Shown one piece after another: positions 17,896-58,451 of a DNA stretch of 64,000 bases. The stretch spans positions 1,789 to 65,788 of the forward strand of contig DAOWCY010000005.1 of assembly GCA_030639305.1 (NCBI GenBank), written 5' to 3'. The position numbers were made by a program, and so were the translations under genes. The notes beneath the pieces were generated by a model that ran no database searches, was not told the origin of the DNA, and saw nothing but the letters and a program-made list of their open reading frames with translations. Numbering within the stretch: position 1 is the stretch's first letter; the number at the start of each line of letters is the position of its first letter. Source of the stretch: Candidatus Aminicenantes bacterium. GTDB lineage: Bacteria; Acidobacteriota; Aminicenantia; UBA2199.

Positions 17896-17912
17896 GCTCT
17901 TTAAATTACACC

Positions 17913-22341: not shown

Positions 22342-22350
22342 ATTGTCCTC

Positions 22351-24140: not shown

Positions 24141-24164
24141 TATGAAATAGGGATTCTTTTTAAC

Positions 24165-24225
24165 CAGCTAATTTGTGCCCACAGTGTGGACAGTTTTTGA
24201 ATAGAACAAAGGGATTATTAATGCC
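24165..24225 (-). pseudogene. Degenerate remnant of the 5' end of a DUF1016 gene.
   Basis: CCAGCTAATTTGTGCCCACAGTGTGGACAGTTTTTGAATAG is homologous to 17282-17320 inside the intact DUF1016 gene (encoding KLSPLWTELSW), but here it carries an in-frame stop. Confidence 0.35.
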
Positions 24226-31702: not shown

Positions 31703-31739
31703 ATATTGCTTAACTCCTTATAATTTTTTTTCTCTTTTT

Positions 31740-31925
31740 GCCTCCGGCGGCCCCACGCGCGTGGGGAGGCGTTAAGCCGCTTCGCGGCAGGACCCTGCCG
31801 GGGGCCAAACTTTTGAAAAAGTTTGATCAAAACTTTTGTTTATTTAGAATCAAAAGCGCTCACACGCTGCCTCTGCGGCGAAGCCGCTTATACCCTGCCC
31901 ACGTGGTGGGCTTTAAAATCCAAAG
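31740..31925. repeat. Copy of the GC-hairpin/REP-like repeat family (hairpin + GAGGCGTTAAGCCGCTTCGCGGCAGGACCC + inverted GATC-palindrome module + further hairpins).
   Basis: CCCCACGCGCGTGGGGAGGCGTTAAGCCGCTTCGCGGCAGG matches 3029-3076 and 3123-3171. GGGGGCCAAACTTTTGAAAAAGTTTGATCAAAACTTTTG is the reverse complement of 1151-1200 and 3208-3250. Confidence 0.5.
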
Positions 31926-44315: not shown

Positions 44316-47300
44316 TTATATATCTAATTGGTCCTCTATGGCGTCTATCTCCTCTAAGGATAACTCATTGTGCGTTAAATCGCTGGGGGTGAGCTCTTTG
44401 TCTTCTTTCGACGAACAAAAAGAGATAATGTTTTTTAATTCCTGTTCAAAATTTTCCAGGATCTGCGTGATGGTTTCATTTTTAAATTGTTTTTTGCTGT
44501 AATTTATGGACATTACCAACTGCCGGTTGGCAATCATGCCGTTTATATCGATGTCGAACTCCCGTACTCCTTCCGGGCTCATTGTGCGCCCGGAAGGTTC
44601 GGCGGCGGCACCGAAAGACCTCTTTTCCATGTCCGCGTCAAACTGGCCTAAGTAGTTGAAACTGACCTGGGGTTCTAATTTGAATTCTATGTCCTGCTTA
44701 TGCTTCCCGGGGGTCAAATATTTCAAAATCCCATACCCGATTCCCCGGTTGGGCGCCCGGCGTAAACTCTCTTTGACTTTCTTGATCGAGCTGGATAGAT
44801 CACTCCCGGATGATACATCTAAAATCACCGGGTAGATGGATGTAAACCAGCCTACGGTGCGGTTTATATCTACATGATCTAAAATTTCTTCCCGGCCGTG
44901 ACCTTCCAGGTTGACCAGCACCCTGCCGGAACCCGCCTGCTTGCTAAATGCCAGGCCCAAAGCGCAGAGCAGGATGTCGTTAATTTCAGTGTTGAAGGCT
45001 TCATTGACTTCGGTCAATAAAAGCCGGGTTTCTTCCTCCGCAAGCCGGAAATATCCGCTTAAGGTGTCTTTTATAAGATTATCCGCGCTTTCAAAATCGT
45101 AAGGGATAACCGGTATTTCCATGGACTCCAGGCCGGCCCAATACTCTTTTTCAACCAAAAATCCGGGGCTGGCGGCATATTCCGGCAACTGCCCGGCCCA
45201 GTATTTATAGGAGTCGGTTTTTAAGGGCAGGGAAAAAGACTCCCCCTTACTGAACTGGCGATAAAGGGTGTCGATGTCTTCAAAAAGAATACGCCAGGAA
45301 ATGCCGTCCGTTATTAGGTGATGAAGCACGATCAGCAGCCGGTCGCCGCCGGCTAACCGGAATAATCCCAATTTTAATAGGGGGCCTTTTTCCAAATCGA
45401 TGCTTGCCTGAATTTCGTCGGCTTTGGACAGCAGTTCCGCGGCGGCTTTTTCCTTATCTTCGATGGACCGGAAATCGAAGGTTTTCAAATCGAGAGGATA
45501 GTCGAGATCGTGATTTTCCAGGAAAATCCCGCCGCCTTCCCGGTGAATACTCATCCTGAGCGCGTCATGATGTTCCATTATCTTCTTAAATACGGCCCCG
45601 ACCGCTTCTTCGTCAAATCCTTCCGGCGAAGAAAGCATGACTGCCTGGTTATAATGGTGGGGGTGTATTGTAATTTTCTTGAAGAACTCTTCATGGGCGG
45701 GCAGCAGCGGCGCCCGGCCCGTGACCGGGGCCTGTTCGGGGATTCTTCCCGCTTCTTTGTGTTCCACTTTGTGAGCGAGATCGGTAATCACGGGGTTCTG
45801 GAAAACATCGCTTACTTTGATTTTATAACCTTCATTGTGCAGCCGCGAAACGATCTGGATGGCTTTAATGGAGTCGCCGCCGATCATAAAGAAATTCTCA
45901 TTCACACCGACTTCCTGCCGGCCCAATACGCTTTCCCAGACTTCGACCAGTTTGCTTTCTACTTCGCCTTCGGGTGCGGCATATTCTTCTTTTCTTTCGC
46001 TGCCTACCATGGCGGGGTCCGCCAGGGCGCGGCGGTCTATCTTCCCGGTGGTGGTCAGGGGGAGCTCTTTTAAAGGCACAAAATAGGCGGGGATCATGTA
46101 ATCGGGCAATTTCTCACCGAGGAATCGCCTTAATTCATAGTCCCCGGGGGCAGTGGAAATATCACCTGATGACCGGCGCGGCTCATTGGTGAATAATCCC
46201 TTGTACAGGGGCGTCCCTTTGTAGGTTTTCTCATGATAGGGCATGTTATACTCAAAGGCAATTTTCCGGCCGTCCTTTTTTTCCAGGTGGCCTTTTACTT
46301 TATAATCGGGCCAGGGTTCGCTGCTGCCGAGCGTGCGGATACAATCGGCTTCTATCCGGTCTCCTTTATCGACTTCCAGGGGTGGGGAAAAGGCGGGGAA
46401 ATAAACAGGTTTCCAGATATGCTCCTGGGCTAAGGTGTCGATCAGGTGGTCCGGTACGGTATAAAAATTAATCCAGAGGATAAATCCGTCTAATTTGGTT
46501 TCCCGCTTTATGGTCAGGTTGATCCGGTGGCTGGCTTCATTCTCTATGACGTCCTGAAAATTTATGTCTTCGAAAATACCGGCGTCGGATATGATGCCGG
46601 TTTTGGGTAGATGCTGGATACAAAGCCTGACATCGAATTCATAACCGAACTTTTCAAATATTTTCTCCGTGTATTCCCGGGAGGTAATGCTGAAGGCGGG
46701 TTCATCCCGCAGGGAACCGGGAAGGGTTACGGCCGCAATCTTAGTGACACAGTGGTGCGGGATGACATAACTCTTCTCCTTTAAAAACCGGCGGGCGTCG
46801 TTGTGAAGCACGATGCCGCCTTCCGAACTGCCGATGGAACCGATCTGGTTGGTTAGATTCACCTCCACTTTTTCGGGCAGCTCTACATCACGGGAATCAC
46901 CGTGGATCAATACGATCTTATCTTCCAGGCCGAATTTCTTAAGATTTTCTTTGGCTTTTAAATAGGATTCTTCCATAATTTCGATGGCGTAGACTTTTTC
47001 GGCTCCGGCATCCACTGCTAACCGGGCCAGTATCAGGTCTCTGCCGGTGCCTACTTCTACGACGGTTTTACCTTTTACTATCCGTTCGATGGCTATTTTA
47101 TAACTGTTGTTCTTTAACTTGTCATGGGCCATGGCATAGTACAAAAGATCGTCCCAGATTAAATAATCACCTGCCGAGGGCATCAATTCGGGATCTTTAT
47201 CCGCTTCATATACATAGTATGCGCAGATGAATTTACTGCCGTCTTCTCCTTCTTTGATTACCGCGGCTGCTTCCTTTATAGATTCATGCTGCGATAACCG

Positions 47301-50300
47301 GTTCTCGATCTCTCCTAATTCGATGCGGTAACCCCTGAGCTTGACCTGGTGGTCCGTCCGGCCTAAAAATTCGATTTCCCCGGTGGGCAGCCAACGGGTA
47401 ATATCACCGGTTTTGTATAATTCTTGCCTCCGGCGGGTCAGAACCTTTTTGAAAAAAGGTTCCGACACCTCCAAAAACTTTCGATGAGCGGCTCCGCCGC
47501 GGATAAAACGCTCTGCGGTGAGCTCGGGGTGGTTTAAATAACCGCGGGATACGCCGGCTCCGGCTATGTACAACTCACCGGGTACGCCTACCGGCAGGAG
47601 ACGCAAATCCCCACCCAGTACAAAACATTGCACATTGGCGATGGGCGTTCCCAGGTTTACCTTCTCACCGGGGGAACATTTTCCGCGCAGGGTGTCGATG
47701 GTGGTTTCGGTGGGGCCGTAATGGTTATATAATTCATACCCTTTGGCGATTAAACTGTCTTTGAGGGCGTCATCGAGCCTGTCACCTCCTGATATCACCG
47801 CCCGTAAACTGGAGAATTGCCCCTGCTGTTCATCCGCCAGCAGGGTTCTCAGGGTGGCGGGTACAAAATTGATGATGGTGATGCGGTTCTCTTCGATATA
47901 ACGGGAGAAGTCTTCCCTGTTGGAGATTAATTCCTTGTGGGGCATGTATACCGACGCGCCGCGGTGCAGGGCGCTGAATATCTGCTCTACGCTGGGATCG
48001 AAGGTGAAACCGGTCAACTGGATGATCCGGTCTTCTTCACGGAGATCGTAAGCTTCGGCAAACCAGTGCAGTACATTGACTACATTTTTGTGTTCCACGA
48101 CGACGCCTTTGGGGGCGCCGGTCGATCCGGAGGTGTACATGATATAGGCGGGCAGGGTTGGTTCCACGGGGAACCCCGGGTTGGCGACGGACTGCTTACT
48201 TAATGTTTCGCTTAATGTGTCGGCCATCAAAATTTGCCTGGCAAACCGGTAACTCTTTTGCGATGTCCGGGGCGCAAAGGCAATGCCGTCGATTTTTTCC
48301 AGTTCTTCCCGGCCGGGAAGCCGGCCTGAATTTTCCAGTATCTTTTCTATAATTTCCAGGAAAGTGACTTCCCCTTCGCTTAGCACGGCTAAATCTATAT
48401 TACGGTCCTGCAGTAGGGGCGCCGTGTTGCGGGTGGCATAAGGGCCGCCGGCAATCAATGGCCCGGCGAAACCCCACTGCCGTATCAATGAGATGGTTTT
48501 ATGGAAAAAATCCTTGTAAAAGGTTAAGGTGCGCACACCGATAACATCAGGTTGAAAATCATCCAAGAGGGTTTTTAAGTCTTCATAATTGTCGAAATCG
48601 ATGCGGGATTTGATTATTTTGCCGTTGATTTCACTGCCTAACTGTTCCTGCAAATAGGTCAATATATATATGGGACCCAGGGGTGGTTCCACTACATCAT
48701 ACAACATATCCGTGTCCCAACTGAAAAATTGAGACAAATCGACCAATAACAACTTCAACGCATCTTCCGCGGGTTGATGGGCCGGGAAAGCGCTGCGCAA
48801 TTTTCGATTCAATTCGGGAACGGCAAAATTTTCTTCCTCTAAAAAGCTTTCGATTCCTAAGTCCGCTTCATCTATCCCGGCCAGGTCCAATATATCGGAA
48901 AAACTATCGATTCCCGAGGGCAGGTAACTGTCATACTTCTGCACGATTTCATCTTCGGTCAGCACCCTGGCCTGGTAAGGGAGCACATGACGCAGCCGCT
49001 CTTTGTTAAGAAAATAATCATTGAGGAATTCAGCCTGGTAATTTTTGGTGAAGCTTTCGCTGAATGGGGATGTGGGCGAATATTCATGTAATGCCAGGTC
49101 TTCGCATTTTAAAATATCTTCGCGCAATACGCCGTGCTCCATGGCCAGGTCGGCCATCTCGGTGCCGGGGTATATCTTTAATATAAATACATAAGGGAAA
49201 TGAAGCCATTCCTGCTCTTTAATGAATTCCAGGGTCAACCGGGCTTCCTCTTCGGTTTCCGTGGGAAAACCGTGGATAGTGAACAACTCTAACACTACCT
49301 GGGGGTACTTTTTGCAGAAGTATTCCACGTTCTCACGAAATTTTTCCAGGTGTAAATTTTTGTCGATCATCTTCTGCAGGCGGGGGGATGCGGTTTCTAA
49401 GGCCATGGCCGTGGTCGCCAGCCCTGCTTCCACCAGCAGGTCGATATAGTCCTTATTCAATAGATCGCCGCGCAGCCCGTTGGGGAAAAATAGCTGTATA
49501 TCCAGGTTGCTTTTGATGATTTTTTCGAAGAGTTTTTCGCCGTTCTTCAAGTTGATGTTGAAGATGTCGTCGAAGATGGAAAAACGGCGGAACCCCATGT
49601 CATAATATAGTTGTAATTCTTCGAAGATATTCTCCGCGGTGCGGAAGGTGTGCTTGCGGGGCCATACTTTACTGCAGTAGAAGCAGTTATAGGGGCAGCC
49701 GCGGGCTGTTTGCAGGGAAATGATGTTCTTCACCATTACCTGGCCGATGTAGCGGTTGTATTTTTCATAATCGACTAAAGAACGATCCGGTATGGGCAGG
49801 GAATCCAGGTTGGCCAGGGGTTTCCTGGGGCAGGTGGTATGAATAGGAACACTGCGCTCTTCCAGGCCCTGCAAAGAGGTAAAGGAATGATCCGAAAACA
49901 CTTTGCCGTGGGTCAACAAATGGGAGGCGCTGCTGTCTTCCAGCATGGTGACCGCACGCTGCTTCGGCATCTGCGGGTCCATGGGCAGGTAAGCTCCCCC
50001 GGCTTTCATTATGCCTAACATCCCGGTTACTAAATCCGTGGAACGTTCTTGCATAAGGCCGACGACACTATTCGCGGTAACGCCCCGGTCTTTCAAATAG
50101 TGGGCCAGGCGGTTGGATTCTTCATTCAATTCCCGGTAGGTAAGAGTGCGGCGCCCGGCGTTGATATCCGGGTTTTTTTCCTGCGCATCCGGCTGAGCGG
50201 ATGCCCCGGCGGGGAGGTCCGGCGCGGCGACGGCTGTATTTCCCGGTGTCTTCTCCACCTGTTCCTCGAAGAGCTGGTGAATGGCTTTGTCGATGGGATA

Positions 50301-51116
50301 CTCCCGGTGCGTGTCGTTAAATTCCACCAGCAGTTGTTTTATCTCTGCTTCGGAAAGCATCTCCAGTTGGTTCGTTTTTTGGCTAACGTCGCTCAGGGCA
50401 TTCAGCAGCAGGTGTGAAAAATGAGACATCAACCGGGCCATGGTTTCCTCCCGGTATAGAGTAGGATGGTATTCCAGGACTGTTTCTATCCTGTCATCTA
50501 CCCTAAAAAAAGAAAAAAGGACGGCGGGCCCGGTATGCCGGATATGTTTTTTATCGTGGATGTTTTCTAATAAAAGGGCGGTATCGAACAAGGGGAAGCG
50601 GTCGCCGGAGGCGGGCATATTCAGTTTATACAATAAGGTGCTCATGGGGTAATTCTGGTTCTCCTCCGCTTCGGTAATGGTGCGCCTGACATCGAGCAGC
50701 AGGTCTTTAAAAGTCATATCTTCCCGCAGCCGGTTCCTTAAAGGCAAAACTGTGTTGATAAACTCCCCATCTATCTCCTGTTTGTAGATCGGGGCGCCGG
50801 TTATTATGTCGCTGCGCCCTGTATATTTATGTATGGTCAGCACCAACCCGGCGGTCAAAATCATAAATAACCGGGAGTCGGATTTATTGCTTAACTTCAG
50901 CAGGGAAGAGACAAGTTCACCGGGCAATGTAATGGGCATCGAAGCTGTCTCTTTATCGCCTTTTCCCTTTTCGCCTTCCCCATAGTCCGCGGGGAAACTG
51001 TTTTTTTCCAAATCCAAAGGAAAGCCGGACAATTTCTCCAGCCAGTAATCTCCTTCTTTAGTCAATTGACCGGCTGCGACTTGCAGTTCGCCATCATATT
51101 GTATATTTTTCTTCAT
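44316..51116 (-). CDS. NRPS with the order [N-terminal half-C] - A(interrupted twice) - T - E. A radical-SAM core plus a B12-binding-like domain sits between motifs A2 and A3, and a PRMT-like methyltransferase sits between A8 and A9.
   Basis: A1/A2 (LTYRELNEESNRLAHYL, LKAGGAYLPMDP), then CPYNCFYC, then AYIMYTSGSTGAPKGV (A3) ... VKLRGYRIELGEIE (A8), then the MT (VVEVGTGRDL), then A9/A10 (LPDYMIPAYF...GKIDRRAL), then T (IGGDSI), then E domain (HHLITDGISW). Confidence 0.85.
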   Translation of the reverse strand: MKKNIQYDGELQVAAGQLTKEGDYWLEKLSGFPLDLEKNSFPADYGEGEKGKGDKETASMPITLPGELVSSLLKLSNKSDSRLFMILTAGLVLTIHKYTGRSDIITGAPIYKQEIDGEFINTVLPLRNRLREDMTFKDLLLDVRRTITEAEENQNYPMSTLLYKLNMPASGDRFPLFDTALLLENIHDKKHIRHTGPAVLFSFFRVDDRIETVLEYHPTLYREETMARLMSHFSHLLLNALSDVSQKTNQLEMLSEAEIKQLLVEFNDTHREYPIDKAIHQLFEEQVEKTPGNTAVAAPDLPAGASAQPDAQEKNPDINAGRRTLTYRELNEESNRLAHYLKDRGVTANSVVGLMQERSTDLVTGMLGIMKAGGAYLPMDPQMPKQRAVTMLEDSSASHLLTHGKVFSDHSFTSLQGLEERSVPIHTTCPRKPLANLDSLPIPDRSLVDYEKYNRYIGQVMVKNIISLQTARGCPYNCFYCSKVWPRKHTFRTAENIFEELQLYYDMGFRRFSIFDDIFNINLKNGEKLFEKIIKSNLDIQLFFPNGLRGDLLNKDYIDLLVEAGLATTAMALETASPRLQKMIDKNLHLEKFRENVEYFCKKYPQVVLELFTIHGFPTETEEEARLTLEFIKEQEWLHFPYVFILKIYPGTEMADLAMEHGVLREDILKCEDLALHEYSPTSPFSESFTKNYQAEFLNDYFLNKERLRHVLPYQARVLTEDEIVQKYDSYLPSGIDSFSDILDLAGIDEADLGIESFLEEENFAVPELNRKLRSAFPAHQPAEDALKLLLVDLSQFFSWDTDMLYDVVEPPLGPIYILTYLQEQLGSEINGKIIKSRIDFDNYEDLKTLLDDFQPDVIGVRTLTFYKDFFHKTISLIRQWGFAGPLIAGGPYATRNTAPLLQDRNIDLAVLSEGEVTFLEIIEKILENSGRLPGREELEKIDGIAFAPRTSQKSYRFARQILMADTLSETLSKQSVANPGFPVEPTLPAYIMYTSGSTGAPKGVVVEHKNVVNVLHWFAEAYDLREEDRIIQLTGFTFDPSVEQIFSALHRGASVYMPHKELISNREDFSRYIEENRITIINFVPATLRTLLADEQQGQFSSLRAVISGGDRLDDALKDSLIAKGYELYNHYGPTETTIDTLRGKCSPGEKVNLGTPIANVQCFVLGGDLRLLPVGVPGELYIAGAGVSRGYLNHPELTAERFIRGGAAHRKFLEVSEPFFKKVLTRRRQELYKTGDITRWLPTGEIEFLGRTDHQVKLRGYRIELGEIENRLSQHESIKEAAAVIKEGEDGSKFICAYYVYEADKDPELMPSAGDYLIWDDLLYYAMAHDKLKNNSYKIAIERIVKGKTVVEVGTGRDLILARLAVDAGAEKVYAIEIMEESYLKAKENLKKFGLEDKIVLIHGDSRDVELPEKVEVNLTNQIGSIGSSEGGIVLHNDARRFLKEKSYVIPHHCVTKIAAVTLPGSLRDEPAFSITSREYTEKIFEKFGYEFDVRLCIQHLPKTGIISDAGIFEDINFQDVIENEASHRINLTIKRETKLDGFILWINFYTVPDHLIDTLAQEHIWKPVYFPAFSPPLEVDKGDRIEADCIRTLGSSEPWPDYKVKGHLEKKDGRKIAFEYNMPYHEKTYKGTPLYKGLFTNEPRRSSGDISTAPGDYELRRFLGEKLPDYMIPAYFVPLKELPLTTTGKIDRRALADPAMVGSERKEEYAAPEGEVESKLVEVWESVLGRQEVGVNENFFMIGGDSIKAIQIVSRLHNEGYKIKVSDVFQNPVITDLAHKVEHKEAGRIPEQAPVTGRAPLLPAHEEFFKKITIHPHHYNQAVMLSSPEGFDEEAVGAVFKKIMEHHDALRMSIHREGGGIFLENHDLDYPLDLKTFDFRSIEDKEKAAAELLSKADEIQASIDLEKGPLLKLGLFRLAGGDRLLIVLHHLITDGISWRILFEDIDTLYRQFSKGESFSLPLKTDSYKYWAGQLPEYAASPGFLVEKEYWAGLESMEIPVIPYDFESADNLIKDTLSGYFRLAEEETRLLLTEVNEAFNTEINDILLCALGLAFSKQAGSGRVLVNLEGHGREEILDHVDINRTVGWFTSIYPVILDVSSGSDLSSSIKKVKESLRRAPNRGIGYGILKYLTPGKHKQDIEFKLEPQVSFNYLGQFDADMEKRSFGAAAEPSGRTMSPEGVREFDIDINGMIANRQLVMSINYSKKQFKNETITQILENFEQELKNIISFCSSKEDKELTPSDLTHNELSLEEIDAIEDQLDI
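46046..47129 (-). other. Class I SAM methyltransferase with PRMT-like features, embedded between A8 and A9 of the same A domain.
   Basis: Motif I VVEVGTGRDLILARLAVDAGAEKVYAIE. The post-motif II/III region resembles protein arginine methyltransferases (IVLIHGDSRDVELPEKVEVNLTNQIGS). Confidence 0.5.
48116..48689 (-). other. B12-binding-like (Rossmann) domain following the embedded radical-SAM core, in permuted order relative to canonical class B enzymes.
   Basis: PLGPIYILTYL...FQPDVIGVRTL...PLIAGGPYAT...IDLAVLSEGE parallels the B12-domain motifs of the stand-alone enzyme (LLTLLPFWAPL...PALVGFSVF...VIMGGGVFS...FIGEGE). Confidence 0.45.
48836..49799 (-). other. Radical-SAM core domain embedded inside the NRPS adenylation domain.
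   Basis: The codons for TARGCPYNCFYCS were verified on the DNA at ~49660-49697. They are preceded by DSLPIPDRSLVDYEKY, as in class B radical-SAM enzymes. Confidence 0.65.
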
Positions 51117-51330
51117 TTTAATTTTCTCCTTTTATTCTATTCAATCCGTAAGACATGAGGGGAGAAAGCCCGGTGTCCCCGGATCGCTTATATACCGCTG
51201 CCGGCATATCAACTTTATCATCCTGCACTACAACTTTATCATCCGGGATCACATCTTTGTCATCCCATATCACAATGTTGTCATACCGGATTACCTATTT
51301 GATTTCCAATATCGTAACTATACGACACTA

Positions 51331-53046
51331 TCAAAAATCAAAGTCGCCTTCTTCTTGCAATTGACTGCGGGCCTCCACCAACTTTATAACCCCGCCGGTA
51401 TCATCGATATAACCGGCTCCCTTTTCAAATTCCATAATCGACGGAACTGCATTCTTCTGCAGCTTTTCCCAGCGCCGGTCCGCCCGGTAAAGGTCGTACA
51501 TGGTAAAAGGATTGGGGATCCCCAAAGATTCACAGTGCTCCACGAACCGGTACATGCGCCGGTACACTTCCTCCCTGGAGGGTTCACATTCGGGATACCA
51601 GGTCTGGATAATCAACATCTCCTTCATCCAGGCGGGATAAAGCAGGTAGGTCTTCTCCTCCCAGCCGTTCATGCCGGCCTGGGCCGAAGGGTAATAGTAA
51701 AAGGGACATGCCCAGACTTCATAAATATCATCTTTTAACGTTTCAACCATATCCAGGGTCAATTGGAAATCTTCCTCGGTTTCACCGGGGTGGCCGATAA
51801 TCCAACAGGTTGAGGTCTTAATGCCGGCACGGGCCAGGCTGGATACCGCTTGCTGAATTTGATTGGGGGTGATCTTTTTATTCATCAGTTCCAACACCCT
51901 GGGAGAGGCGCTCTCGAGACCCAATTTCGCTTTGTAAAAACCGCCCCGGCGCCATAACAACGTGTTTTCGATATCACAGACATGTTTATCCGCACGCAGG
52001 TAACCGTCCCAGTACATGATTTTACCGGAGTTAATAAACTCCCGGGACAGATCGTGAACCACGGGATTGAGCAAGGAATCGCACATCAGGAATAACTGTT
52101 GACCGTATTTTTCATATAATCCCGTCATTTCGGAAACGATCTGGGGGGCGCTCTTTTTACGGTACTTACCATAAAAAACGGTCTCGGAACAAAAGCTGCA
52201 TTGAAAGGGACAACTGCGCGAGGTGTAGGCTGCGACAAACGGGTACTGGCCGATGTCGAAATCGGAATAATCGGGCAGGGCGACCGTGGAAAGATCCAGG
52301 GTCTTAGAGCCGATGTCGGCCAGGGTATACACTCTCTGCTCCGCGGGCAGCCGGTCTTCCAGGTAGTCCAGGAACAGCTTCTCGCCTTCCCCGATGAAAA
52401 TTTTATCCACATAGGGGGCTTTCTCCAGGAAAAAATCCAGGTTGGGAGAACCCAAAGCAAGCTGCTCCGAAAAAACACCGCCGCCCATAATGACGTTGAT
52501 ATCCGGGTTTTTCGCTTTGGTTAACCGGGCGGCGAAAAGAGAGGCGGGCAGGGTGCTTTCAAATACGGAAAAGCCTACCAAAGCGGGTTTTTCGCGTTCC
52601 AGCAGGGCGGTGAACCAGCGCTCCAAACGGGTATAAAAATCGGCAAGAACACGGTTTAAACGCCGCACCACCGTGTCATCGATTTCGCAGAAGAAAGTCT
52701 TCTGCACCAGGATGCGAATCGCATGGTTGTACTTTTCGGCGTCTTTTTTTTCGTCATCTTCCAGGTAAGCCATCATGTGGTTTTGCAGCACATCTTTTCC
52801 GACTACATAAAAGTTGCCCCATTTTTCAGCGGGAACGACCTCTTTCAAAAGATCGAAATAAACAGCGCTGAAATCGCGGAATTCCTCCGCCGCGTTCCCG
52901 TCAAAAGTGGCGACGGTGAAGTTCCGCTCCTGTAAAAAGCTCTTCAGGTTGGCGATTCCCACGGGAGGAATCAATGGGGCCCAAAAGGGCAGTAAGGTTA
53001 GGAGAATTTTCTCCCGGCCTTTTCCAGGTTTAGAATGAGAAGTCAT
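51331..53046 (-). CDS. Stand-alone class B (B12-binding) radical SAM enzyme. Probable C-methyltransferase or other B12-rSAM tailoring enzyme.
   Basis: N-terminal B12-binding-like domain followed by the radical-SAM core SRSCPFQCSFCSE. Start placed at ATG 53046 (MTSHS...), which has an AGGAGG RBS and a 17-nt overlap with the upstream gene. C-terminal tail EEGDFDF. Confidence 0.8.
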   Translation of the reverse strand: MTSHSKPGKGREKILLTLLPFWAPLIPPVGIANLKSFLQERNFTVATFDGNAAEEFRDFSAVYFDLLKEVVPAEKWGNFYVVGKDVLQNHMMAYLEDDEKKDAEKYNHAIRILVQKTFFCEIDDTVVRRLNRVLADFYTRLERWFTALLEREKPALVGFSVFESTLPASLFAARLTKAKNPDINVIMGGGVFSEQLALGSPNLDFFLEKAPYVDKIFIGEGEKLFLDYLEDRLPAEQRVYTLADIGSKTLDLSTVALPDYSDFDIGQYPFVAAYTSRSCPFQCSFCSETVFYGKYRKKSAPQIVSEMTGLYEKYGQQLFLMCDSLLNPVVHDLSREFINSGKIMYWDGYLRADKHVCDIENTLLWRRGGFYKAKLGLESASPRVLELMNKKITPNQIQQAVSSLARAGIKTSTCWIIGHPGETEEDFQLTLDMVETLKDDIYEVWACPFYYYPSAQAGMNGWEEKTYLLYPAWMKEMLIIQTWYPECEPSREEVYRRMYRFVEHCESLGIPNPFTMYDLYRADRRWEKLQKNAVPSIMEFEKGAGYIDDTGGVIKLVEARSQLQEEGDFDF

Positions 53047-54235
53047 CGTCCTCCTCTTTAGACATTTTCGACTCCGCTTTAACAAATTTTGTGCGGGGTT
53101 CGACTTTTTTCGGTTTTACTGTATCTAAATATTTTAAATCGAAATTAATATCCTTTGCCAGTTTCTCCAGCAGTCCCGGCGGGGGATCGAGTTCCAGGTC
53201 TTCCAGGGCCTGTTCCCGGGTCATTTCCCCGGCCCTGACAATAGTGGAATATTCATCGTGGTAGTGGGTGTATTTCCTGATCTTCATATCCCGCACCGAG
53301 TTGAGCCAGATCATTTCGCAGTTGGTGGTGCGGGCCGGGAAACCGGAACCTTCTTCCAATGGCTCCCAGTCGAATCTAGCTTTGCATATTTTTTTCAATT
53401 CTTCCTTGTCGGTTTTGTAGAATTTGAATACGAAAAATGGGATGAATAATATTTTTTCAGGATCTACCGGTTTTTCCAGGTCCCTGCGGTCCTGGTAAAT
53501 GACCTGCTGATTCAACACGGCCCATTTTTTAGTGAATTGATCGAGAAAATCGGTATCGCCGCTGTCCAGGATGACATTAATCATCTTACTATACCAGTCC
53601 CGGGCTTTTTTTTCGTCATGCATCATGGCGGTCTGCCCTTTGGAGTAACCGTTGATCACCAGCGGGACATTAAAATTAGCGGCGATTTCCAGGCCGTTGA
53701 GATACAACATATTGCCGCAGGGGAAACAGGGGCTGACGTCGGGTTCGGTGGACTCGTTAAAAATCTTAAAGAGCCGCCTCATGAACTTTAACTCATTCTT
53801 CCAGATCAGCAGATCGACATCCAGTTCCTTGCAGAGTTTTTCCACGTTGCGCGTGGCAATGGGGTCGTCCCAGCCGTGGTCGCTGTGAAAAACCATGGGC
53901 TTTAAACCGAAATCCTCAACGATGCGGATCAGGGTAAAACAACTGTCTACTCCACCGCTCAAGGGGACCAGCAGGTCATATTTACGCCCCAGGTTCTTGT
54001 ACTTCTGTAAAGCGGCTTTAACCTCTTCTTCGCTTTGAAAGCGTTCCGGTTCCCGTTCTTTTTCCCCGGCGTCGAAAGTGTGACAGATATTACATACGCC
54101 GTTTTCATCAAAGGTAATTCCCGGATAGGTCTCCGGTAATACACATCTTGTACATACTTGCATGGTATGCCTCCTTGTTTTTTTAATTTTTACCATTACA
54201 TGGCGGTATCGATGAGCATGTTCGACATAGTTCAC
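53030..54235 (-). CDS. PP-loop ATP pyrophosphatase of the N-acetyl-sugar-amidotransferase-like (WbuX/WbpG-type) family.
   Basis: N-terminal Zn-ribbon CTRCVLPETYPGITFDENGVCNICH and the PP-loop SGGVDS motif. C-terminal tail EEDDDFSF. Confidence 0.7.
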   Translation of the reverse strand: MNYVEHAHRYRHVMVKIKKTRRHTMQVCTRCVLPETYPGITFDENGVCNICHTFDAGEKEREPERFQSEEEVKAALQKYKNLGRKYDLLVPLSGGVDSCFTLIRIVEDFGLKPMVFHSDHGWDDPIATRNVEKLCKELDVDLLIWKNELKFMRRLFKIFNESTEPDVSPCFPCGNMLYLNGLEIAANFNVPLVINGYSKGQTAMMHDEKKARDWYSKMINVILDSGDTDFLDQFTKKWAVLNQQVIYQDRRDLEKPVDPEKILFIPFFVFKFYKTDKEELKKICKARFDWEPLEEGSGFPARTTNCEMIWLNSVRDMKIRKYTHYHDEYSTIVRAGEMTREQALEDLELDPPPGLLEKLAKDINFDLKYLDTVKPKKVEPRTKFVKAESKMSKEEDDDFSF

Positions 54236-54323: not shown

Positions 54324-57300
54324 TTAAAATCCGAAATCACCTTCTTCTTTCGAAATAACCGGCTGCGCGGTTTCAAAAGAATGGGTAATCACGATATCTT
54401 TTATCTTTATATTTTTATTGTGTAATACCTGGTCGATGATCTCCCGGTAACGTTTGCCTAACTTTTCCACCGTTTCCCTTTTAAAAAGCGCGGTGCTGTA
54501 AAACACCACAAAAAACAGGTCATCCTCGGTCTCGATGCCGTACCAGTCGATGTCCATCTTGGTGACCCGGTTTTCCAGCGGCTCGATAGGATCTCTTGTT
54601 TCGCCCGGTTCCGGGGTCCTCTGACTTTGCCTACCTGTCTGCGACCGGGAAAATATCTCGAACATGACATCGAATAAAGGATTGCGCCCCTGTTCCCGGT
54701 TTACCTGTAGATTGTTCACCAGGATTTCGAAAGGATAATCCTGGTTCTCGTAGGCTTTGAAAGACCTCTCTTTCACTTCCTTCAAAAAATCCGTGAAACC
54801 CTTCCCGCCGCCGGGAAAATTCCTAAAAGCTAAGGTATTGATAAATGCGCCGATGATGCTTTCCAGGTCCACGTGCCTGCGGCCGGCAGCCGGTGTGCCG
54901 ATAACGATATCTTCCTGCCCGCTTATTTTTGCCAGCAAAATATTCAATAGGGCCAGCATCAGGATTTGCATGGTGACGCCCTGCTCCGAAATTAATTCCC
55001 GCAGCGCCCGCACCTGTTCCCTGGGCAGGGCAAAATTTACGGTGCTGCCTGCATAACTTTGACCTTCAGGCCTGGGGAAATCAAGCGGCAGGTCGAGAAG
55101 AGGCAGTTCCCCGGAAAACTCCTCCAGCCAGAATTTCTCCTGGACTGTAAAAGCTCCGCTCCTGATTTGCCGGTTCTGCCATTCGGAAAAATCTTTATAC
55201 TGCAGCCGCAGCGGCGGCAGTTCCTTACCTTCGAGAAGTGACATAAAATCCCATTTCAACACATCATTGGAAAAGGCATCGGTGACGATGTGATGCATAT
55301 CCACTACCAGCACCGCATAACCTTCTCCTTTTACAGCCATTAGGGCGGCCCGCAGCAGCGGGGCCCGGGACAGGTCGAAGAATTTTATAAATCCCTGCAT
55401 GATTTTCTTTGCTTCTTCCCCGGCGGTTTCTTTATACTCGATGTGGAAATCCACTTCATCGTGTATCTTCTGTTTGGGTTCCCCGGCAATTATTTCGATA
55501 GAAGTGCGGAACACTTCATGCCGCCGGATCAATCGCTTAAAAGCGGCGGTCAACCGTTCTTCACTATAGTCGCCCTGCAAAATAAAACTTTCGGGCATGT
55601 TGTAGCCGATGCTGTCCGGGTTCATTTGCTGCAAAACATATAATCTTTTCTGGGCTGACGACAGTTCGTAGTATTCCTTTTTTTCAACCGCATTGACGGC
55701 GGTAAACCGGTCCGCTGCCGCGTCATCTATGAGCCCGGCCAACTTCCTGACGGTTTGCAGTTGAAATATATCCACCAATTGTACTTTGACATCGAATTTT
55801 TTGTGAATCCTGGAGGAAATGACAATCGCCCTGAGAGAATTCCCTCCCAGGTCGAAAAAATTATGGTCTATTCCCACTTGTTCTTGCTCAACTTCTAAGA
55901 CCTGCGACCAAATCCCGACCAGTTCTTTTTCTTTTTCATCCCGGGGAGCGACATACTCCGCCCCGGCGGAAGCTTCGGGATCGGGCAGCGCTCTGCGGTC
56001 GATTTTACCATTGGCGGTCAAGGGCAGCGCCTCCAACCGGACAAAAAACCAGGGCACCATGTAAGCAGGCAGTTTTTGCCCTAAGTAATCCCGCAGTTCG
56101 GCCATTTCCAGTTTTTTTTCGGAAACGAAATAACCGCAGAGATATTTGTCGTCGTTTTTTTCTTTCTTTTCCACCACTACCGCTTCCTTGACATGGGGAT
56201 GCTCTAAAAGCTTGCTCTCGATTTCACCCAATTCGATGCGGTAACCCCTTACTTTGACCTGGTAGTCGATACGGCCTAAAAACTCCATATTGCCGTCCGG
56301 CAGCCAGCGGGCCAGGTCACCGGTTTTGTAAAGAGTGAGGGGTGACCGGTGAGGGGTGAGTGGCGGGGGCCCCGGCTGTTGGGAAATATTGGACCTATAG
56401 GTCTTATTGGACAAATGAGCGATAGAGACGAACTTTTCTGCTGTTAACTCCGGGTTATTCAAATAGCCGCGGGTGACGCTTTTACCCCCGATATAAAGTT
56501 CGCCGGGTACGCCCAAGGGGAGGGGATTGCCTGCTCTATCCAGCACATAAAACTTTACATTGGGCAGGGGGGTGCCGATAGGCACATTCCCGGCAGCGGG
56601 GATATTCTCCACATTATCCTCTTCGTAATAACTGCTGTCGATGGTGGCTTCGGTCACCCCATAGCTATTTATTATTCTCATCCGCTTCCCGAAACGAACT
56701 ACTAATTCCTTAAAATCACGATAAGGGCAAATATCGGAACCCAGGATTAATAATTGCAAACTTTCGATATCCAGGTTGTTTTCATAAACATACTGCATAA
56801 ATGGAATAATATAAGCGGGAGTCGATTCAAACAGGGTGATGCGGTGGTTCTTTATCAATTCGTAAAGAGATTCCGGGGCGACCGCTAATTCCGGGGTAAT
56901 CACCATTTTGCCGCCGTTTAAAAAAGCCCTGGCTAAATCGCCGGCAAACACATCAAAGGAAAAACCGGCCATTTGCAATAGGTTTACTTCTATTTCCTGC
57001 AAACCATATTCCCGGCGCCAGCCAAAAGCCAAATTGATAAAATGGCTGTGCTGTACCATAACGCCTTTCGGTTTGCCGGTGGAACCGGAAGTATAAATAA
57101 CATAAACCGGGCCGGTAGGAACGCTTACATGTTCGGGATTACCGGCTTCACTGCGGTCGAATCGTTCATTTTCTATGGTAATAATCTCGCCGTTAAAATT
57201 CACCTTTTCCTTCAGGTTTTCCCGGGTAACCAGCAGCAGAGCGGCGCTGTCCAGCAGCATATACTCGATACGCTGCGCCGGTAATCCCGGGTCCACCGGT

Positions 57301-58451
57301 AGGTAAGCGCCTCCAGCTTTTATAACAGCCAGCACGCCGATAATCATTTCAAGGCTCCGCTCCGTCATGACCGCTGCTATAGTACCGGCGGTTAATCCCC
57401 GCTCCCGCAGCACCAGCGCAAGACGGCCGGCTTTTTCGTTTAATTGGGCATATGACAATTCCCTTTCGGCAGTTTCCGCCCCGGGACTGTCCCCGGCCGG
57501 AACTGCTCCAAATTCCCGGCCTGCGGCGCTTTGAGCCACAACCGCGGTATCCCGGGGCGTTTTCCCTACCTGCTCTTCAAATAACTGCCCGAAAGTCTTA
57601 TCCCCCGGGAAATCGCAGTCGGAAGCGTTAAATTCCTCCAGTAATTGCTGCTTCTCCGGGGCGGAAAGCATATCGACAGCAGCCGGTTTTTGAGATAAGT
57701 CGCTCAAAGCCAGATCCAAGACACGCGCATAATGATCGACGATTTGTTTTATCATCCGCCGGCTGTACTGCCCGGGATAATACTCGACAAACCCCTCTAT
57801 CCGGCCGGGGCCGCTGCGAAAAGAAAACAGCATGTGATAATCTATGTCTTTAAGATAATCCTGAGTATGAATGTTCTCCAGTACCAGCGCCGCATCGAAA
57901 AGTGGAAACTCGCCCTTGACGACCGGCAGCTTCAACAAATCAGGCAGCACTTCCATGGGGAAATTCTGGTTTTGCGAAGCATTTACGATAGTTTCTCTTA
58001 CCTGCAAAAGCAGTTCTTTAAAGGTCATTTCGTCCCGCAGCCGGTTCCTGGATACCAATACCCGGTTAATAAAGTCGGTTTCGGTTTCCTGCTTCAGTAT
58101 CGGGGCGCCGGTCAGGATATCGTCGCTGCCGGTATATTTGTGAAGCAGCAGCACCAACCCGGCCACCAACACCATATGCAGCTTTATATCGATCCCACCG
58201 CTAATCTTTTCCAGCTTCGATACAAGATCAGCGGGTAAAGTGAAACTTTTTTTTGCCGGGAGGGAATCCCCTTCCCCGGCAGGCCCGGCACCGGGAAAAC
58301 GCTCCACCCCGGAGTCGCTAACTCCAATACGGTCATAAGGGAAACGGCTTTTCACCAATTCCCCGGATAACTGCTCCAGCCAGTATTCTCTTTCTTTCAC
58401 ATTTTGATTGGCGGCAATTGCCGCCCTGTCGGAATAAAGCCTTGCTTCCAT
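54324..58451 (-). CDS. NRPS with the order [N-terminal half-C] - A - T - C.
   Basis: The N-terminal ~285 aa match only the C-terminal lobe of a C domain. Complete A motifs follow (LKAGGAYLPVDP / YVIYTSGSTGKPKGV / SYGVTEAT / GELYIGGKSVTRGY / LYKTGDLARW / VKVRGYRIELGEIE). T (LGGNSL). C domain with HHIVTDAFS. Tail EEGDFGF. Confidence 0.85.
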   Translation of the reverse strand: MEARLYSDRAAIAANQNVKEREYWLEQLSGELVKSRFPYDRIGVSDSGVERFPGAGPAGEGDSLPAKKSFTLPADLVSKLEKISGGIDIKLHMVLVAGLVLLLHKYTGSDDILTGAPILKQETETDFINRVLVSRNRLRDEMTFKELLLQVRETIVNASQNQNFPMEVLPDLLKLPVVKGEFPLFDAALVLENIHTQDYLKDIDYHMLFSFRSGPGRIEGFVEYYPGQYSRRMIKQIVDHYARVLDLALSDLSQKPAAVDMLSAPEKQQLLEEFNASDCDFPGDKTFGQLFEEQVGKTPRDTAVVAQSAAGREFGAVPAGDSPGAETAERELSYAQLNEKAGRLALVLRERGLTAGTIAAVMTERSLEMIIGVLAVIKAGGAYLPVDPGLPAQRIEYMLLDSAALLLVTRENLKEKVNFNGEIITIENERFDRSEAGNPEHVSVPTGPVYVIYTSGSTGKPKGVMVQHSHFINLAFGWRREYGLQEIEVNLLQMAGFSFDVFAGDLARAFLNGGKMVITPELAVAPESLYELIKNHRITLFESTPAYIIPFMQYVYENNLDIESLQLLILGSDICPYRDFKELVVRFGKRMRIINSYGVTEATIDSSYYEEDNVENIPAAGNVPIGTPLPNVKFYVLDRAGNPLPLGVPGELYIGGKSVTRGYLNNPELTAEKFVSIAHLSNKTYRSNISQQPGPPPLTPHRSPLTLYKTGDLARWLPDGNMEFLGRIDYQVKVRGYRIELGEIESKLLEHPHVKEAVVVEKKEKNDDKYLCGYFVSEKKLEMAELRDYLGQKLPAYMVPWFFVRLEALPLTANGKIDRRALPDPEASAGAEYVAPRDEKEKELVGIWSQVLEVEQEQVGIDHNFFDLGGNSLRAIVISSRIHKKFDVKVQLVDIFQLQTVRKLAGLIDDAAADRFTAVNAVEKKEYYELSSAQKRLYVLQQMNPDSIGYNMPESFILQGDYSEERLTAAFKRLIRRHEVFRTSIEIIAGEPKQKIHDEVDFHIEYKETAGEEAKKIMQGFIKFFDLSRAPLLRAALMAVKGEGYAVLVVDMHHIVTDAFSNDVLKWDFMSLLEGKELPPLRLQYKDFSEWQNRQIRSGAFTVQEKFWLEEFSGELPLLDLPLDFPRPEGQSYAGSTVNFALPREQVRALRELISEQGVTMQILMLALLNILLAKISGQEDIVIGTPAAGRRHVDLESIIGAFINTLAFRNFPGGGKGFTDFLKEVKERSFKAYENQDYPFEILVNNLQVNREQGRNPLFDVMFEIFSRSQTGRQSQRTPEPGETRDPIEPLENRVTKMDIDWYGIETEDDLFFVVFYSTALFKRETVEKLGKRYREIIDQVLHNKNIKIKDIVITHSFETAQPVISKEEGDFGF

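What the first reader, a model, noticed from the sequence alone, without database searches (positions are those of the whole stretch)
51331..54235. Stand-alone B12-radical SAM and PP-loop amidotransferase-like genes embedded between NRPS genes with translational overlap.
The PP-loop enzyme (Zn-ribbon CxxC...CxxC plus SGGVDS; N-acetyl-sugar amidotransferase-like family) and the class B radical SAM (B12 domain plus SRSCPFQCSFCSE) lie between two NRPS genes. The rSAM gene overlaps the stop of the PP-loop gene by 17 nt and has a strong RBS inside the upstream coding sequence. PP-loop ATPases in natural-product pathways activate carboxylates for amidation or thioamidation. A class B rSAM suggests C-methylation. 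Together with the embedded rSAM, this points to a heavily and unusually tailored nonribosomal peptide-polyketide.
Basis: partly seen in the sequence, partly recalled or inferred. Interest (0 to 1): 0.6.

Follow-up and report, generated by a model that had tools for sequence, protein, structure and literature searches.

The report
Tail-tagged NRPS tailoring enzyme pair
Two helper enzymes sit between the genes of a peptide assembly line in an uncultured anaerobe; they most likely put sulfur into the peptide backbone and add methyl groups, and they end in the same short tail as the assembly-line subunits, which looks like a shared docking tag.

Summary
On the minus strand, a 377-aa PP-loop gene (54163-53030) and a 571-aa cobalamin-type radical SAM gene (53046-51331) overlap by 17 nt between NRPS genes of a Candidatus Aminicenantes MAG. 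In relatives the PP-loop is fused to the rSAM, to NRPS C or TE domains, or inserted into A domains. The "amidotransferase" label is only half right. The closest HMM and fold is N-acetyl-sugar amidotransferase (NASAT), but the score is below cutoff. The family also has three invariant cysteines (C146, C149, C282) that NASAT lacks. They match the [4Fe-4S] ligands of CtaC, the closthioamide thioamide synthetase that works on carrier-bound peptides. Backbone thioamidation is therefore the best guess, and peptide C-methylation for the rSAM. New here: both enzymes and the two upstream NRPS subunits end in an acidic [F/W/L]-x-F-COOH tail. That tail co-occurs with downstream NRPS proteins that start with only the C-terminal lobe of a condensation domain (hand-curated 26 of 27 such junctions versus 0 of 21 others). 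It looks like a shared docking code. All functions are inferred from sequence.

The parts
53030..54163 (-). PP-loop ATP-pyrophosphatase gene (377 aa). It has a NASAT-like fold with a CtaC-like three-cysteine motif.
54083..54154 (-). Zinc-ribbon tetracysteine C4, C7, C24, C27 (CxxC...GxCxxC)
   Evidence: motif definition in PMC10607449
53942..53959 (-). PP-loop SGGVDS (residues 69-74)
53717..53728 (-). C146-F-P-C149, putative [4Fe-4S] ligands. The motif is invariant in the family and absent from LpNASAT.
53318..53320 (-). C282, the putative third Fe-S ligand (TTNC motif)
53033..53116 (-). Variable linker with low model confidence (pLDDT falls from residue ~350 and is below 50 for 361-377), ending in the acidic tail EEDDDFSF-COOH
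53030..53046 (-). 17-nt overlap between the PP-loop stop and the rSAM start, with RBS AGAGGAGGA just upstream
51331..53046 (-). Stand-alone cobalamin-type (class B) radical SAM gene, 571 aa
52450..52608 (-). Pfam B12-binding match (residues 147-199)
52189..52212 (-). Radical SAM cluster motif C279-x3-C283-x2-C286
51334..51357 (-). rSAM C-terminal tail QEEGDFDF-COOH
54324..58451 (-). Upstream NRPS subunit: truncated C (profile positions 187-456 only), then A, T and a full C domain, ending EEGDFGF-COOH (tail at 54327-54350)
58487..64000 (-). NRPS subunit that runs off the window end. It ends in a full C domain plus the tail AGDLDF-COOH (58490-58513).
44316..51116 (-). Downstream NRPS: a truncated C lobe (aa 1-~300, nt 50217-51116), an A domain interrupted by an rSAM/B12 unit and a SAM methyltransferase, then T and E. 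It is the putative docking partner and substrate-carrying module.
51210..51275 (.). Three copies of a 21-nt tandem repeat in the intergenic region between the rSAM gene and the downstream NRPS gene

Best explanation
The two genes encode a trans-acting tailoring pair for the surrounding NRPS/PKS line. The PP-loop protein is a zinc-ribbon, probably [4Fe-4S]-dependent ATP pyrophosphatase of the CtaC type. It would adenylate a backbone amide oxygen of a peptide held on a carrier domain and replace it with sulfide, giving a thioamide. The rSAM is a cobalamin-dependent enzyme that most likely methylates an unactivated carbon of the same tethered peptide. Both enzymes, like the two preceding NRPS subunits, end in a low-confidence (likely flexible) linker plus an acidic [F/W/L]-x-F-COOH tail. 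This tail is proposed to be a short docking motif that brings them to the next subunit, which begins with a catalytically dead C-terminal lobe of a condensation domain. Shown here: gene structure, motifs, fold, conservation, fusions, and the co-occurrence of tail and truncated C. Inferred: Fe-S binding, sulfur chemistry, methylation, and docking.
For: Cluster membership. Homologues lie between NRPS genes in L001, L002, L006 (Clostridium tagluense), L007 and L008, and beside NRPS or PKS genes in about 20 of 23 genome loci. Eight of the 120 best rSAM homologues are PP-loop::rSAM fusions. In other relatives the PP-loop domain is inserted into A domains or fused after C or TE domains.

Sulfur chemistry. 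C146, C149 and C282 are invariant in alignment A1 and conserved in 223 of 240 sequences of the larger domain alignment. NASAT-like relatives and the 8WEX structure lack them. CtaC uses D77/S78 and C154/C157/C284 and acts only on PCP-bound peptide. Peptides translated from the CtaC mutagenesis primers read SGGKDS and C-F-F-C-G, against C-F-P-C-G here. The CxxC aligns with CxxC-containing PP-loop chains in the PDB profile search (8CNZ alignment shown; TtuA and NcsA matches cover the region). No HisH/HisF-like ammonia supplier lies in the cluster.

rSAM. It has CX3CX2C plus a B12 domain. The best matches are peptide or phosphinate methylases: TIGR03975 aligns over nearly the whole protein, and the best PDB hit is 9CCB, a glutamine C-methyltransferase.

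Tail. 108 of 120 rSAM homologues and 51 of 120 PP-loop homologues end in [FW]-x-F. The tail is low-confidence in the AlphaFold model. Tails precede NRPS proteins that start with a truncated C in 19 of 26 junctions against 3 of 22 for other junctions in the automated count (Fisher p = 4e-5), and in 26 of 27 against 0 of 21 after hand curation.
Against: No biochemistry was done and no product is known. The nearest HMM and the nearest solved fold are an amidotransferase, not a sulfur transferase. About half of the stand-alone PP-loop homologues have no tail and still sit next to the same kind of NRPS, so the tail is not essential. No sulfur donor gene is visible. The rSAM scores are far below every curated family cutoff.
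Confidence: 0.5

Rival explanations
1. The PP-loop enzyme is a true amidotransferase of the NASAT kind. It adenylates an amide (or N-acyl) carbonyl on the NRPS intermediate and adds ammonia or an amine, giving an amidine or a cyclic amidine rather than a thioamide.
For: The best HMM is TIGR03573 (E 2e-47, full-length alignment). The best structural match is LpNASAT 8WEX (TM 0.61; profile E 5e-37). The tetracysteine and PP-loop motifs that define NASAT are present.
Against: The score is below the curated cutoff (162 against 203 bits). The three invariant extra cysteines are absent from 8WEX and from NASAT-like relatives. No glutaminase or HisH/HisF-like partner lies in the cluster. The only characterised NRP-linked enzyme with this motif set makes thioamides.
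Confidence: 0.17
2. The PP-loop enzyme and the B12-rSAM carry out one coupled transformation rather than two independent ones. For example, thioamide formation could be followed by cobalamin-mediated methyl transfer to sulfur or to the adjacent carbon, giving a thioimidate that is then displaced or cyclised.
For: Natural PP-loop::rSAM fusions with a single tail exist. The two genes are always adjacent, in either order, and are translationally coupled here.
Against: In many loci the PP-loop gene occurs without a stand-alone rSAM, with only the rSAM embedded in the A domain. Fusion may simply reflect sharing one docking tail. There is no chemical precedent for this within these families.
Confidence: 0.15
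3. The [F/W/L]-x-F tail is not a tag that recruits the enzymes to the truncated C lobe. It may order NRPS subunits through another receptor (a T or A domain, or the upstream C domain), or have an unrelated role such as stability or cofactor loading. Its presence on the enzymes would then be inherited from fusion and fission events.
For: Half of the stand-alone PP-loop homologues lack the tail. PP-loop domains fused to the end of NRPS proteins end without it. No binding or structural evidence was obtained.
Against: The tail is kept on about 90% of the rSAM homologues over 50-70% sequence divergence, while the linker before it varies. Within single clusters it is absent from every E-to-C junction and from subunits followed by A or KS starts.
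Confidence: 0.3
4. The two genes are housekeeping genes (tRNA thiolation, LPS or flagellin sugar amidation, cofactor methylation) that happen to lie between NRPS genes.
For: There are weak hits to TtuA, TilS, PAPS reductase and MiaB-type models.
Against: All those hits are far below cutoff. The same gene pair recurs inside NRPS/PKS clusters across several phyla and as covalent fusions with NRPS domains.
Confidence: 0.02

Closest known systems
CtaC, the closthioamide thioamide synthetase of Ruminiclostridium cellulolyticum (Dunbar et al. 2019, PMC6772006)
   Same: It is a stand-alone AANH/PP-loop enzyme with Zn, ATP and three-Cys Fe-S motifs at nearly the same spacing: D77/S78 and C154/C157/C284, against D73/S74 and C146/C149/C282 here. 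The local motif is CFFCG against CFPCG. It is encoded beside thiotemplated enzymes. That paper already noted homologues next to canonical NRPS genes and drew rSAM genes in the example clusters.
   Different: CtaC works in an NRPS-independent pathway on a free-standing PCP. The window protein sits in a canonical multimodular NRPS/PKS, carries a C-terminal tail, and belongs to a clade that is also found fused to B12-rSAMs and to NRPS domains. Full-length identity to CtaC could not be measured. A C. botulinum relative from an NRPS/PKS cluster is only 26-28% identical.
N-acetyl sugar amidotransferases (WbuX, WbpG, PseA; TIGR03573; LpNASAT structure 8WEX)
   Same: Same overall fold, N-terminal tetracysteine zinc site and PP-loop. 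This is the best HMM and the best structural match.
   Different: The score is below the family cutoff. The context is NRPS, not glycan. NASAT has no cysteine at the three invariant positions.
[4Fe-4S]-dependent tRNA thiolases TtuA, NcsA and TtcA
   Same: Zinc finger plus PP-loop plus a CxxC...C cluster that activates sulfide. They are the second tier of structural matches.
   Different: TM-scores are only about 0.35. The substrate is tRNA. The C-terminal half of the protein differs.
Cobalamin-dependent rSAM peptide C-methyltransferases (TIGR03975 proteusin type; MCR glutamine C-methyltransferase, PDB 9CCB; TokK)
   Same: An N-terminal B12 domain plus a CX3CX2C core. These are the best sequence matches.
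   Different: All scores are far below family cutoffs. The enzyme here is linked to an NRPS rather than to a ribosomal peptide or protein, and it carries the C-terminal tail.
SLiM / beta-hairpin docking domain (bHD) pairs of NRPS and PKS subunits (review PMC9113145)
   Same: A short, disordered C-terminal motif is proposed to mediate subunit recruitment. One motif type serves several partners, including tailoring enzymes.
   Different: In the known system the motif sits on carrier proteins, Cy domains or oxidases, and the receptor is a roughly 50-aa bHD at the partner's N-terminus. Here the motif sits on C domains and on the tailoring enzymes themselves. The partners have no bHD and start directly with a truncated C lobe.
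X-domain recruitment of Oxy P450s in glycopeptide NRPS (own knowledge)
   Same: A catalytically dead member of the condensation-domain family serves as a landing pad for several trans-acting tailoring enzymes.
   Different: The X domain is a full-size, C-terminal domain that binds folded P450s. Here the candidate platform is an N-terminal half-domain and the ligand is a terminal peptide. This is an analogy only.

Membership tests
NASAT (TIGR03573, WbuX/WbpG/PseA) | Tetracysteine CXXCXn[GN]XCXXC zinc site | tested here: met
   C4, C7, G22-V-C24-N-I-C27. The site is invariant in the family alignments. The motif definition comes from PMC10607449.
NASAT (TIGR03573, WbuX/WbpG/PseA) | PP-loop SGGXDS | tested here: met
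   SGGVDS at residues 69-74
NASAT (TIGR03573, WbuX/WbpG/PseA) | Score at or above NCBIfam's curated cutoff (203.2 bits) | tested here: not met
   162.2 bits
NASAT (TIGR03573, WbuX/WbpG/PseA) | Fold of LpNASAT (8WEX) | tested here: met
   AlphaFold model with pLDDT 92. Foldseek top hit is 8WEX (E 7e-13, TM 0.61). The family profile against 8WEX gives E 5e-37.
NASAT (TIGR03573, WbuX/WbpG/PseA) | Glycan (O-antigen or flagellin sugar) gene context with a HisH/HisF-like ammonia supplier (own knowledge of wbuXYZ) | tested here: not met
   All neighbours are NRPS, PKS or exporter genes. No such genes lie in the cluster half of the window or in the related loci.
CtaC-type Fe-S AANH thioamide synthetase | ATP-binding PP-loop with essential Asp-Ser | tested here: met
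   D73 and S74, conserved in 239 and 240 of 240 sequences. CtaC D77 and S78 are essential.
CtaC-type Fe-S AANH thioamide synthetase | Three-cysteine CxxC...C motif of the TtcA/TtuA type | tested here: met
   C146, C149 and C282 are invariant in A1 and A3 and present in 223 of 240 sequences. Spacing is 72/133, against 76/127 in CtaC. The local motif is CFPCG, against the primer-derived CFFCG of CtaC.
CtaC-type Fe-S AANH thioamide synthetase | Full-length sequence homology to CtaC (Ccel_3258) | tested here: inconclusive
   The CtaC sequence was not obtainable. Only about 45 residues could be reconstructed from mutagenesis primers. A C. botulinum NRPS/PKS-cluster protein (P0277) links the two groups at 26-28% identity (E 4e-27, BLASTP E 9e-35; context), but its accession is not in the paper's Table S5.
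CtaC-type Fe-S AANH thioamide synthetase | Binds an oxygen-labile [4Fe-4S] cluster and converts a carrier-bound amide to a thioamide with ATP and sulfide | not testable with these tools
   Needs anaerobic biochemistry
CtaC-type Fe-S AANH thioamide synthetase | Encoded with thiotemplated (carrier-protein) machinery | tested here: met
   covalent fusions to NRPS domains
Class B (cobalamin-dependent) radical SAM methyltransferase | CX3CX2C radical SAM core | tested here: met
   C279, C283 and C286; PF04055 54.9 bits against a cutoff of 29.5
Class B (cobalamin-dependent) radical SAM methyltransferase | N-terminal cobalamin-binding domain | tested here: inconclusive
   PF02310 scores 30.9 bits, just under the 32.1 cutoff. 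The domain is listed in the precomputed Pfam hits and in the NCBI name for the identical protein. A single-sequence structure model failed (pLDDT 38).
Class B (cobalamin-dependent) radical SAM methyltransferase | Membership of a characterised methylase subfamily (PhpK, TIGR03975, KedN5, QCMT and others) | tested here: not met
   The best scores are 101 and 93 bits, against cutoffs of 600 and 282. The best PDB hit, 9CCB, has E 2.5e-10.
SLiM / beta-hairpin docking pair | Disordered C-terminal motif shorter than 15 residues | tested here: met
   Tail pLDDT is below 50 for residues 361-377. The last 4-7 residues are conserved after a variable linker.
SLiM / beta-hairpin docking pair | An N-terminal bHD (TubC_N-like, about 50 aa) on the receiving protein | tested here: not met
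   The N-termini of the receiving NRPS proteins match only Condensation profile positions 187-456, starting at residue 13-17. There is no TubC_N hit.

The most novel reading that the evidence does not exclude
The acidic [F/W/L]-x-F-COOH tail may be a portable address label of a docking class not yet described. NRPS subunits ending in a full C domain and several kinds of trans tailoring enzymes (the Fe-S PP-loop enzyme and two families of B12-rSAM) would take turns on the same receptor, a catalytically dead C-terminal lobe of a condensation domain at the start of the next module. The natural PP-loop::B12-rSAM fusions would mark a coupled backbone chemistry (thioamide plus methyl transfer) unknown in nonribosomal peptides.
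Probability: 0.3. Interest if true: 0.78.

Novelty: new variant of a known kind. Interest (0 to 1): 0.62.

Why it matters
Closthioamide, made by an NRPS-independent route, was described in 2019 as the only known bacterial thioamide-containing nonribosomal peptide. No product of a canonical NRPS with a CtaC-like enzyme turned up in the literature searched. This locus belongs to a widespread, conserved cluster family in Aminicenantes, Clostridia and other anaerobes. Two members are in cultured strains: Clostridium tagluense and C. frigidicarnis DSM 12271. The family combines a probable thioamide synthetase with stand-alone and A-domain-embedded cobalamin rSAMs. That makes backbone thioamidation and radical methylation on an assembly line directly testable. 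If the shared tail is a docking code, it would be a simple and transferable way to recruit tailoring enzymes to chosen modules in engineered NRPSs.

Tried and rejected
It was repeated with a closer set (A3), which could not reach CtaC itself.

2. Attempts to obtain CtaC. I looked for exact residue numbering among the held proteins. I screened Cys spacing, which picked P0316. The last homology search, run with P0316, gave no R. cellulolyticum hit. Cluster look-ups returned almost no names. The supplement holds no sequence. Only primer-derived fragments were recovered.

3. Docking test.

4. The rSAM structure was submitted by mistake without an alignment. The model had pLDDT 38 and was unusable, so no fold search was run.

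5. The stand-alone rSAM is not a copy of the rSAM embedded in the next NRPS: 26% identity over 200 aa, and the domain order is reversed.

6. Rfam, including the cobalamin riboswitch: no match in the window.

7. Literature searches for Aminicenantes NRPS, for NASAT with NRPS, for rSAM-interrupted A domains and for thioamide synthetases since 2020 found nothing on this system.

8. The tRNA/LPS housekeeping reading was rejected on context.
Full report
**What is in the sequence.**
All genes of the finding lie on the minus strand. The longest ORF for the first gene starts at GTG 54235. ATG 54163 follows AAGGAGG and gives a 377-aa protein starting MQVCTRC. Every homologue starts the same way, as does the NCBI call for the identical protein, MCK4763366.1 from a Candidatus Aminicenantes MAG. 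Its stop, TAA, is at 53032-53030. The second gene starts at ATG 53046, preceded by AGAGGAGGA inside the first coding sequence. It ends at 51331 and encodes 571 aa, identical to MCK4763367.1. No Rfam family matches anywhere in the window.

**The surrounding cluster.**
The pair sits in a hybrid NRPS/PKS cluster running from beyond 64000 down to about 28600. In order, the genes are:
- An NRPS that runs off the window end and finishes with a full C domain.
- An NRPS at 58451-54324 with truncated C, A, T and full C.
- The PP-loop gene and the rSAM gene.
- An NRPS at 51116-44316. It has a truncated C, an A domain interrupted by an rSAM/B12 unit and by a SAM methyltransferase, then T and E. The last domain matches TIGR01720 at 164 bits.
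- A free-standing C domain.
- An A-T-C-A-T NRPS.
- A KS-AT-KR-ACP-TE PKS.
- A fusion of a beta-lactamase-fold protein with an ABC exporter.

**Family assignment of the PP-loop protein.**
- The best model is TIGR03573 (WbuX, N-acetyl sugar amidotransferase). The E-value is 2e-47 over the whole profile, but the score is 162 bits against a curated cutoff of 203. Pfam gives nothing above threshold.
- An AlphaFold model built on 52 homologues is confident (pLDDT 92). Its best solved match is the Legionella NASAT 8WEX (TM 0.61). The [4Fe-4S] tRNA thiolases TtuA and NcsA follow at TM about 0.35.
- The family has three more invariant cysteines: C146 and C149 in a CxxC, and C282.
- In an exhaustive search of 1.84 billion cluster representatives, the relatives that keep these cysteines include stand-alone and NRPS-embedded forms. 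The NASAT-like relatives have a deletion at the CxxC and Ser, Asp or Asn at the third site.
- A profile-to-PDB alignment shows the same for 8WEX itself. The CxxC instead aligns with the CxxC of 8CNZ, and the TtuA and NcsA matches also cover that region.

**Link to CtaC.**
The only characterised enzyme with this motif set in peptide natural-product biosynthesis is CtaC. It is the Fe-S AANH thioamide synthetase of closthioamide. It needs ATP, sulfide, D77/S78 and C154/C157/C284, and it acts only on peptide bound to a carrier protein (PMC6772006). The window protein has D73/S74 and C146/C149/C282.

I could not obtain the CtaC sequence. Translating the published mutagenesis primers gives ...MLSGGKDSIYVAYILSKV, LQDCSQLCFFCGRL and QEYISSGCKLGKPY. 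The local Fe-S motif is therefore CFFCG in CtaC and CFPCG here.

A 26-28% identical relative from Clostridium botulinum (P0277) lies in an NRPS/PKS cluster next to an aspartate decarboxylase. That paper's Table S5 lists C. botulinum NRPS/PKS loci of this kind, and its figure legend already mentions rSAM genes in such clusters. I conclude that the protein works like CtaC, with probability about 0.55-0.6. An amidine-forming NASAT-like reaction is the main rival. Membership in the CtaC family is supported at motif level only.

**The rSAM.**
It has a radical SAM core above the Pfam cutoff and a B12-binding match just below it. The best curated matches are methylases: the PhpK family, BchE, and TIGR03975, a RiPP C-methyltransferase model that aligns over residues 14-437. 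All are far below their cutoffs. The best solved relative is 9CCB, which a 2026 review identifies as the methyl-coenzyme M reductase glutamine C-methyltransferase. C-methylation of a peptide residue is the most economical reading, but it is an inference. The enzyme is not a duplicate of the rSAM embedded in the next NRPS: identity is 26% over the core, and the domain order is reversed.

- A 51% identical homologue (L001) shows the same order: NRPS, NRPS, PP-loop, rSAM, then an NRPS with an rSAM/B12-interrupted A domain.
- A second copy in the same MAG (L002) lies between a PKS/NRPS and the same kind of NRPS.
- Clostridium tagluense, a cultured organism, has NRPS, PP-loop and the rSAM-interrupted NRPS, followed by an NRPS and a PKS. 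The beta-lactamase::ABC fusion is also in the locus, upstream of these genes.
- A scan of one genome per species found 23 loci. They come from Aminicenantes, Deferrimicrobium, Clostridia and other Bacillota, Oscillospiraceae, Verrucomicrobiota, a deltaproteobacterium, Thiomargarita and another Thiotrichaceae MAG, and C. frigidicarnis DSM 12271. About 20 have NRPS or PKS genes next to the PP-loop gene.
- The downstream NRPS is 40-52% identical across these loci, and the exporter fusion 38-39%.
- Covalent links are stronger evidence still. Eight of the 120 best rSAM homologues are PP-loop::rSAM fusions of 906-925 aa. Among cluster representatives, the PP-loop domain occurs between the core and the C-terminal subdomain of A domains in C-A-T proteins of about 1400 aa (Fulvivirga, Acidobacteria). 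It also occurs after a terminal C domain or a TE domain.
- The housekeeping reading is therefore excluded.

**The shared tail.**
The C-termini read as follows:
- NRPS that runs off the window: ...AGDLDF
- NRPS 58451-54324: ...EEGDFGF
- PP-loop protein: ...EEDDDFSF
- rSAM: ...EEGDFDF

The next two proteins in the operon end differently...EDQLDI and ...EDLEDE. Among the 120 best rSAM homologues, 108 end in [FW]-x-F, preceded by Asp, Glu or Gly. Among the 120 best PP-loop homologues, 51 do. Those 51 are about 25 residues longer than the tail-less ones, through a variable linker. In the structure model, confidence falls from about residue 350, and residues 361-377 score below 50.

The proteins that follow tail-bearing proteins are unusual. 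Both NRPS subunits here begin, within 13-17 residues of the start, at position 187-190 of the 456-position Condensation profile. That is just before the YWxxxLSG motif, so they have no HHxxxDG. The tail-bearing NRPS proteins end in complete C domains.

Across the window and 27 related loci, an automated count found a tail on the preceding NRPS at 19 of 26 truncated-C junctions and at 3 of 22 other junctions (Fisher p = 4e-5). Its errors are identifiable:
- L-x-F variants such as DLDF were not scored.
- Some start codons were miscalled.
- One frameshift and one read-through confused the calls.
- One KS start was scored as a truncated C.

After hand curation the counts are 26 of 27 against 0 of 21.

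Junctions from an E domain to a full C domain in the same clusters use a different acidic ending of the classical COM type, for example LSLEDLEDVFE (own knowledge for the COM comparison). The known SLiM/beta-hairpin docking system (PMC9113145) is the nearest precedent. However, its receptor is a roughly 50-aa N-terminal domain that these proteins lack. It also places the motif on carrier proteins, not on C domains or tailoring enzymes.

My proposal is that the tail is a docking motif, with the truncated C lobe or the module it heads as receptor. Several proteins would share it in turn, in the way that the X domain of glycopeptide synthetases recruits P450s (own knowledge, analogy only). The tail is dispensable in about half of the PP-loop homologues, which weakens the case.

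**How it most likely works, step by step.**
1. Shown: the two genes are translationally coupled members of the NRPS operon.
2. Shown: the PP-loop protein has the ATP site, a zinc ribbon and a three-Cys site.
3. Inferred: it binds a [4Fe-4S] cluster.
4. Inferred: it adenylates a backbone amide of the peptide held on the T domain of the downstream module, and sulfide displaces AMP to give a thioamide.
5. Inferred: the rSAM methylates an unactivated carbon of the same intermediate using methylcobalamin and a 5'-deoxyadenosyl radical.
6. Inferred from co-occurrence: both enzymes reach the module through their tails.

**Novelty and score.**
CtaC-like genes next to NRPS and rSAM genes were reported as a genome-mining observation in 2019, so the kind is known. 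Three things appear new within the searched literature:
- the tail and truncated-C junction rule;
- the PP-loop::B12-rSAM fusions;
- the insertion of this PP-loop domain into A domains.

I rate the finding a new variant of a known kind, with interest 0.62.

Noticed in passing
window 44316-51116 (-), especially residues ~430-960 of the protein: The A domain of this NRPS is interrupted between its A2 and A3 motifs by a radical SAM core (CPYNCFYC) followed by a B12-binding domain, the reverse of the usual order. It also carries a SAM methyltransferase insert at residues 1344-1418. The rSAM insert is conserved at 52-74% identity in Aminicenantes, Clostridia, C. tagluense and C. frigidicarnis loci. 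I found no description of an rSAM-interrupted A domain in the searched literature.
   Followed up: partly
window 28597-31830 (-): A fusion of a beta-lactamase-fold protein with an ABC exporter (1077 aa). It is 38-39% identical to genes in the C. botulinum (L004) and C. tagluense (L006) clusters. It resembles the prodrug-activating peptidase/exporter fusions of other NRPS/PKS pathways (own knowledge).
   Followed up: partly
window 51210-51275: Three copies of a 21-nt tandem repeat (consensus CAACTTTATCATCC...) in the 214-nt gap between the rSAM stop and the start of the next NRPS. It may be an operator or another regulatory site. L001 has a repetitive 65-codon ORF at the same position.
   Followed up: no
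window ~7000-24200: A low-GC island (36-42% against about 50%). It encodes a 2405-aa protein with an AAA/STAND-like ATPase region, a SIR2-like protein, a YhcG PDDEXK nuclease, a Schlafen/AlbA_2-HTH protein and a DUF4062-TPR protein. It looks like a defence island next to the biosynthetic cluster.
   Followed up: no
L007 16531-18216; L014 11038-12681; L015 3091-4734; L019 2674-4359: A second, distinct family of stand-alone B12-type rSAM proteins (547-562 aa, N-terminus M.R.IDCL.[IV]GHN) in related clusters. They also end in [F]-x-F-COOH, so the tail is shared across unrelated tailoring enzymes.
   Followed up: partly
P0268, P0271 (Fulvivirga), P0282 (Acidobacteria), P0244 (Firmicutes HGW-1), P0245: The three-Cys PP-loop domain occurs as an integral NRPS domain. 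It is inserted between AMP-binding and AMP-binding_C in C-A-T proteins of about 1400 aa, or appended after a terminal C or TE domain.
   Followed up: partly
L004/L005 (Clostridium botulinum contigs), genes at 9510-12456: A distant PP-loop relative (P0277) sits between an aspartate 1-decarboxylase and a free-standing C domain, followed by an A-T-C-A-T NRPS that is 38% identical to the window's 37589-42760 gene. This suggests a beta-alanine-containing, possibly thioamidated product in C. botulinum.
   Followed up: partly
L008 1-2169 and L001 5843-9965: In two assemblies the tail of the upstream NRPS is displaced. L008 reads through 11 residues past GDFAF. L001 has a frameshift that splits off a 46-aa ORF ending EDFNF, while a sister contig has the intact 1394-aa protein. 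These are probably assembly or sequencing errors rather than biology.
   Followed up: no
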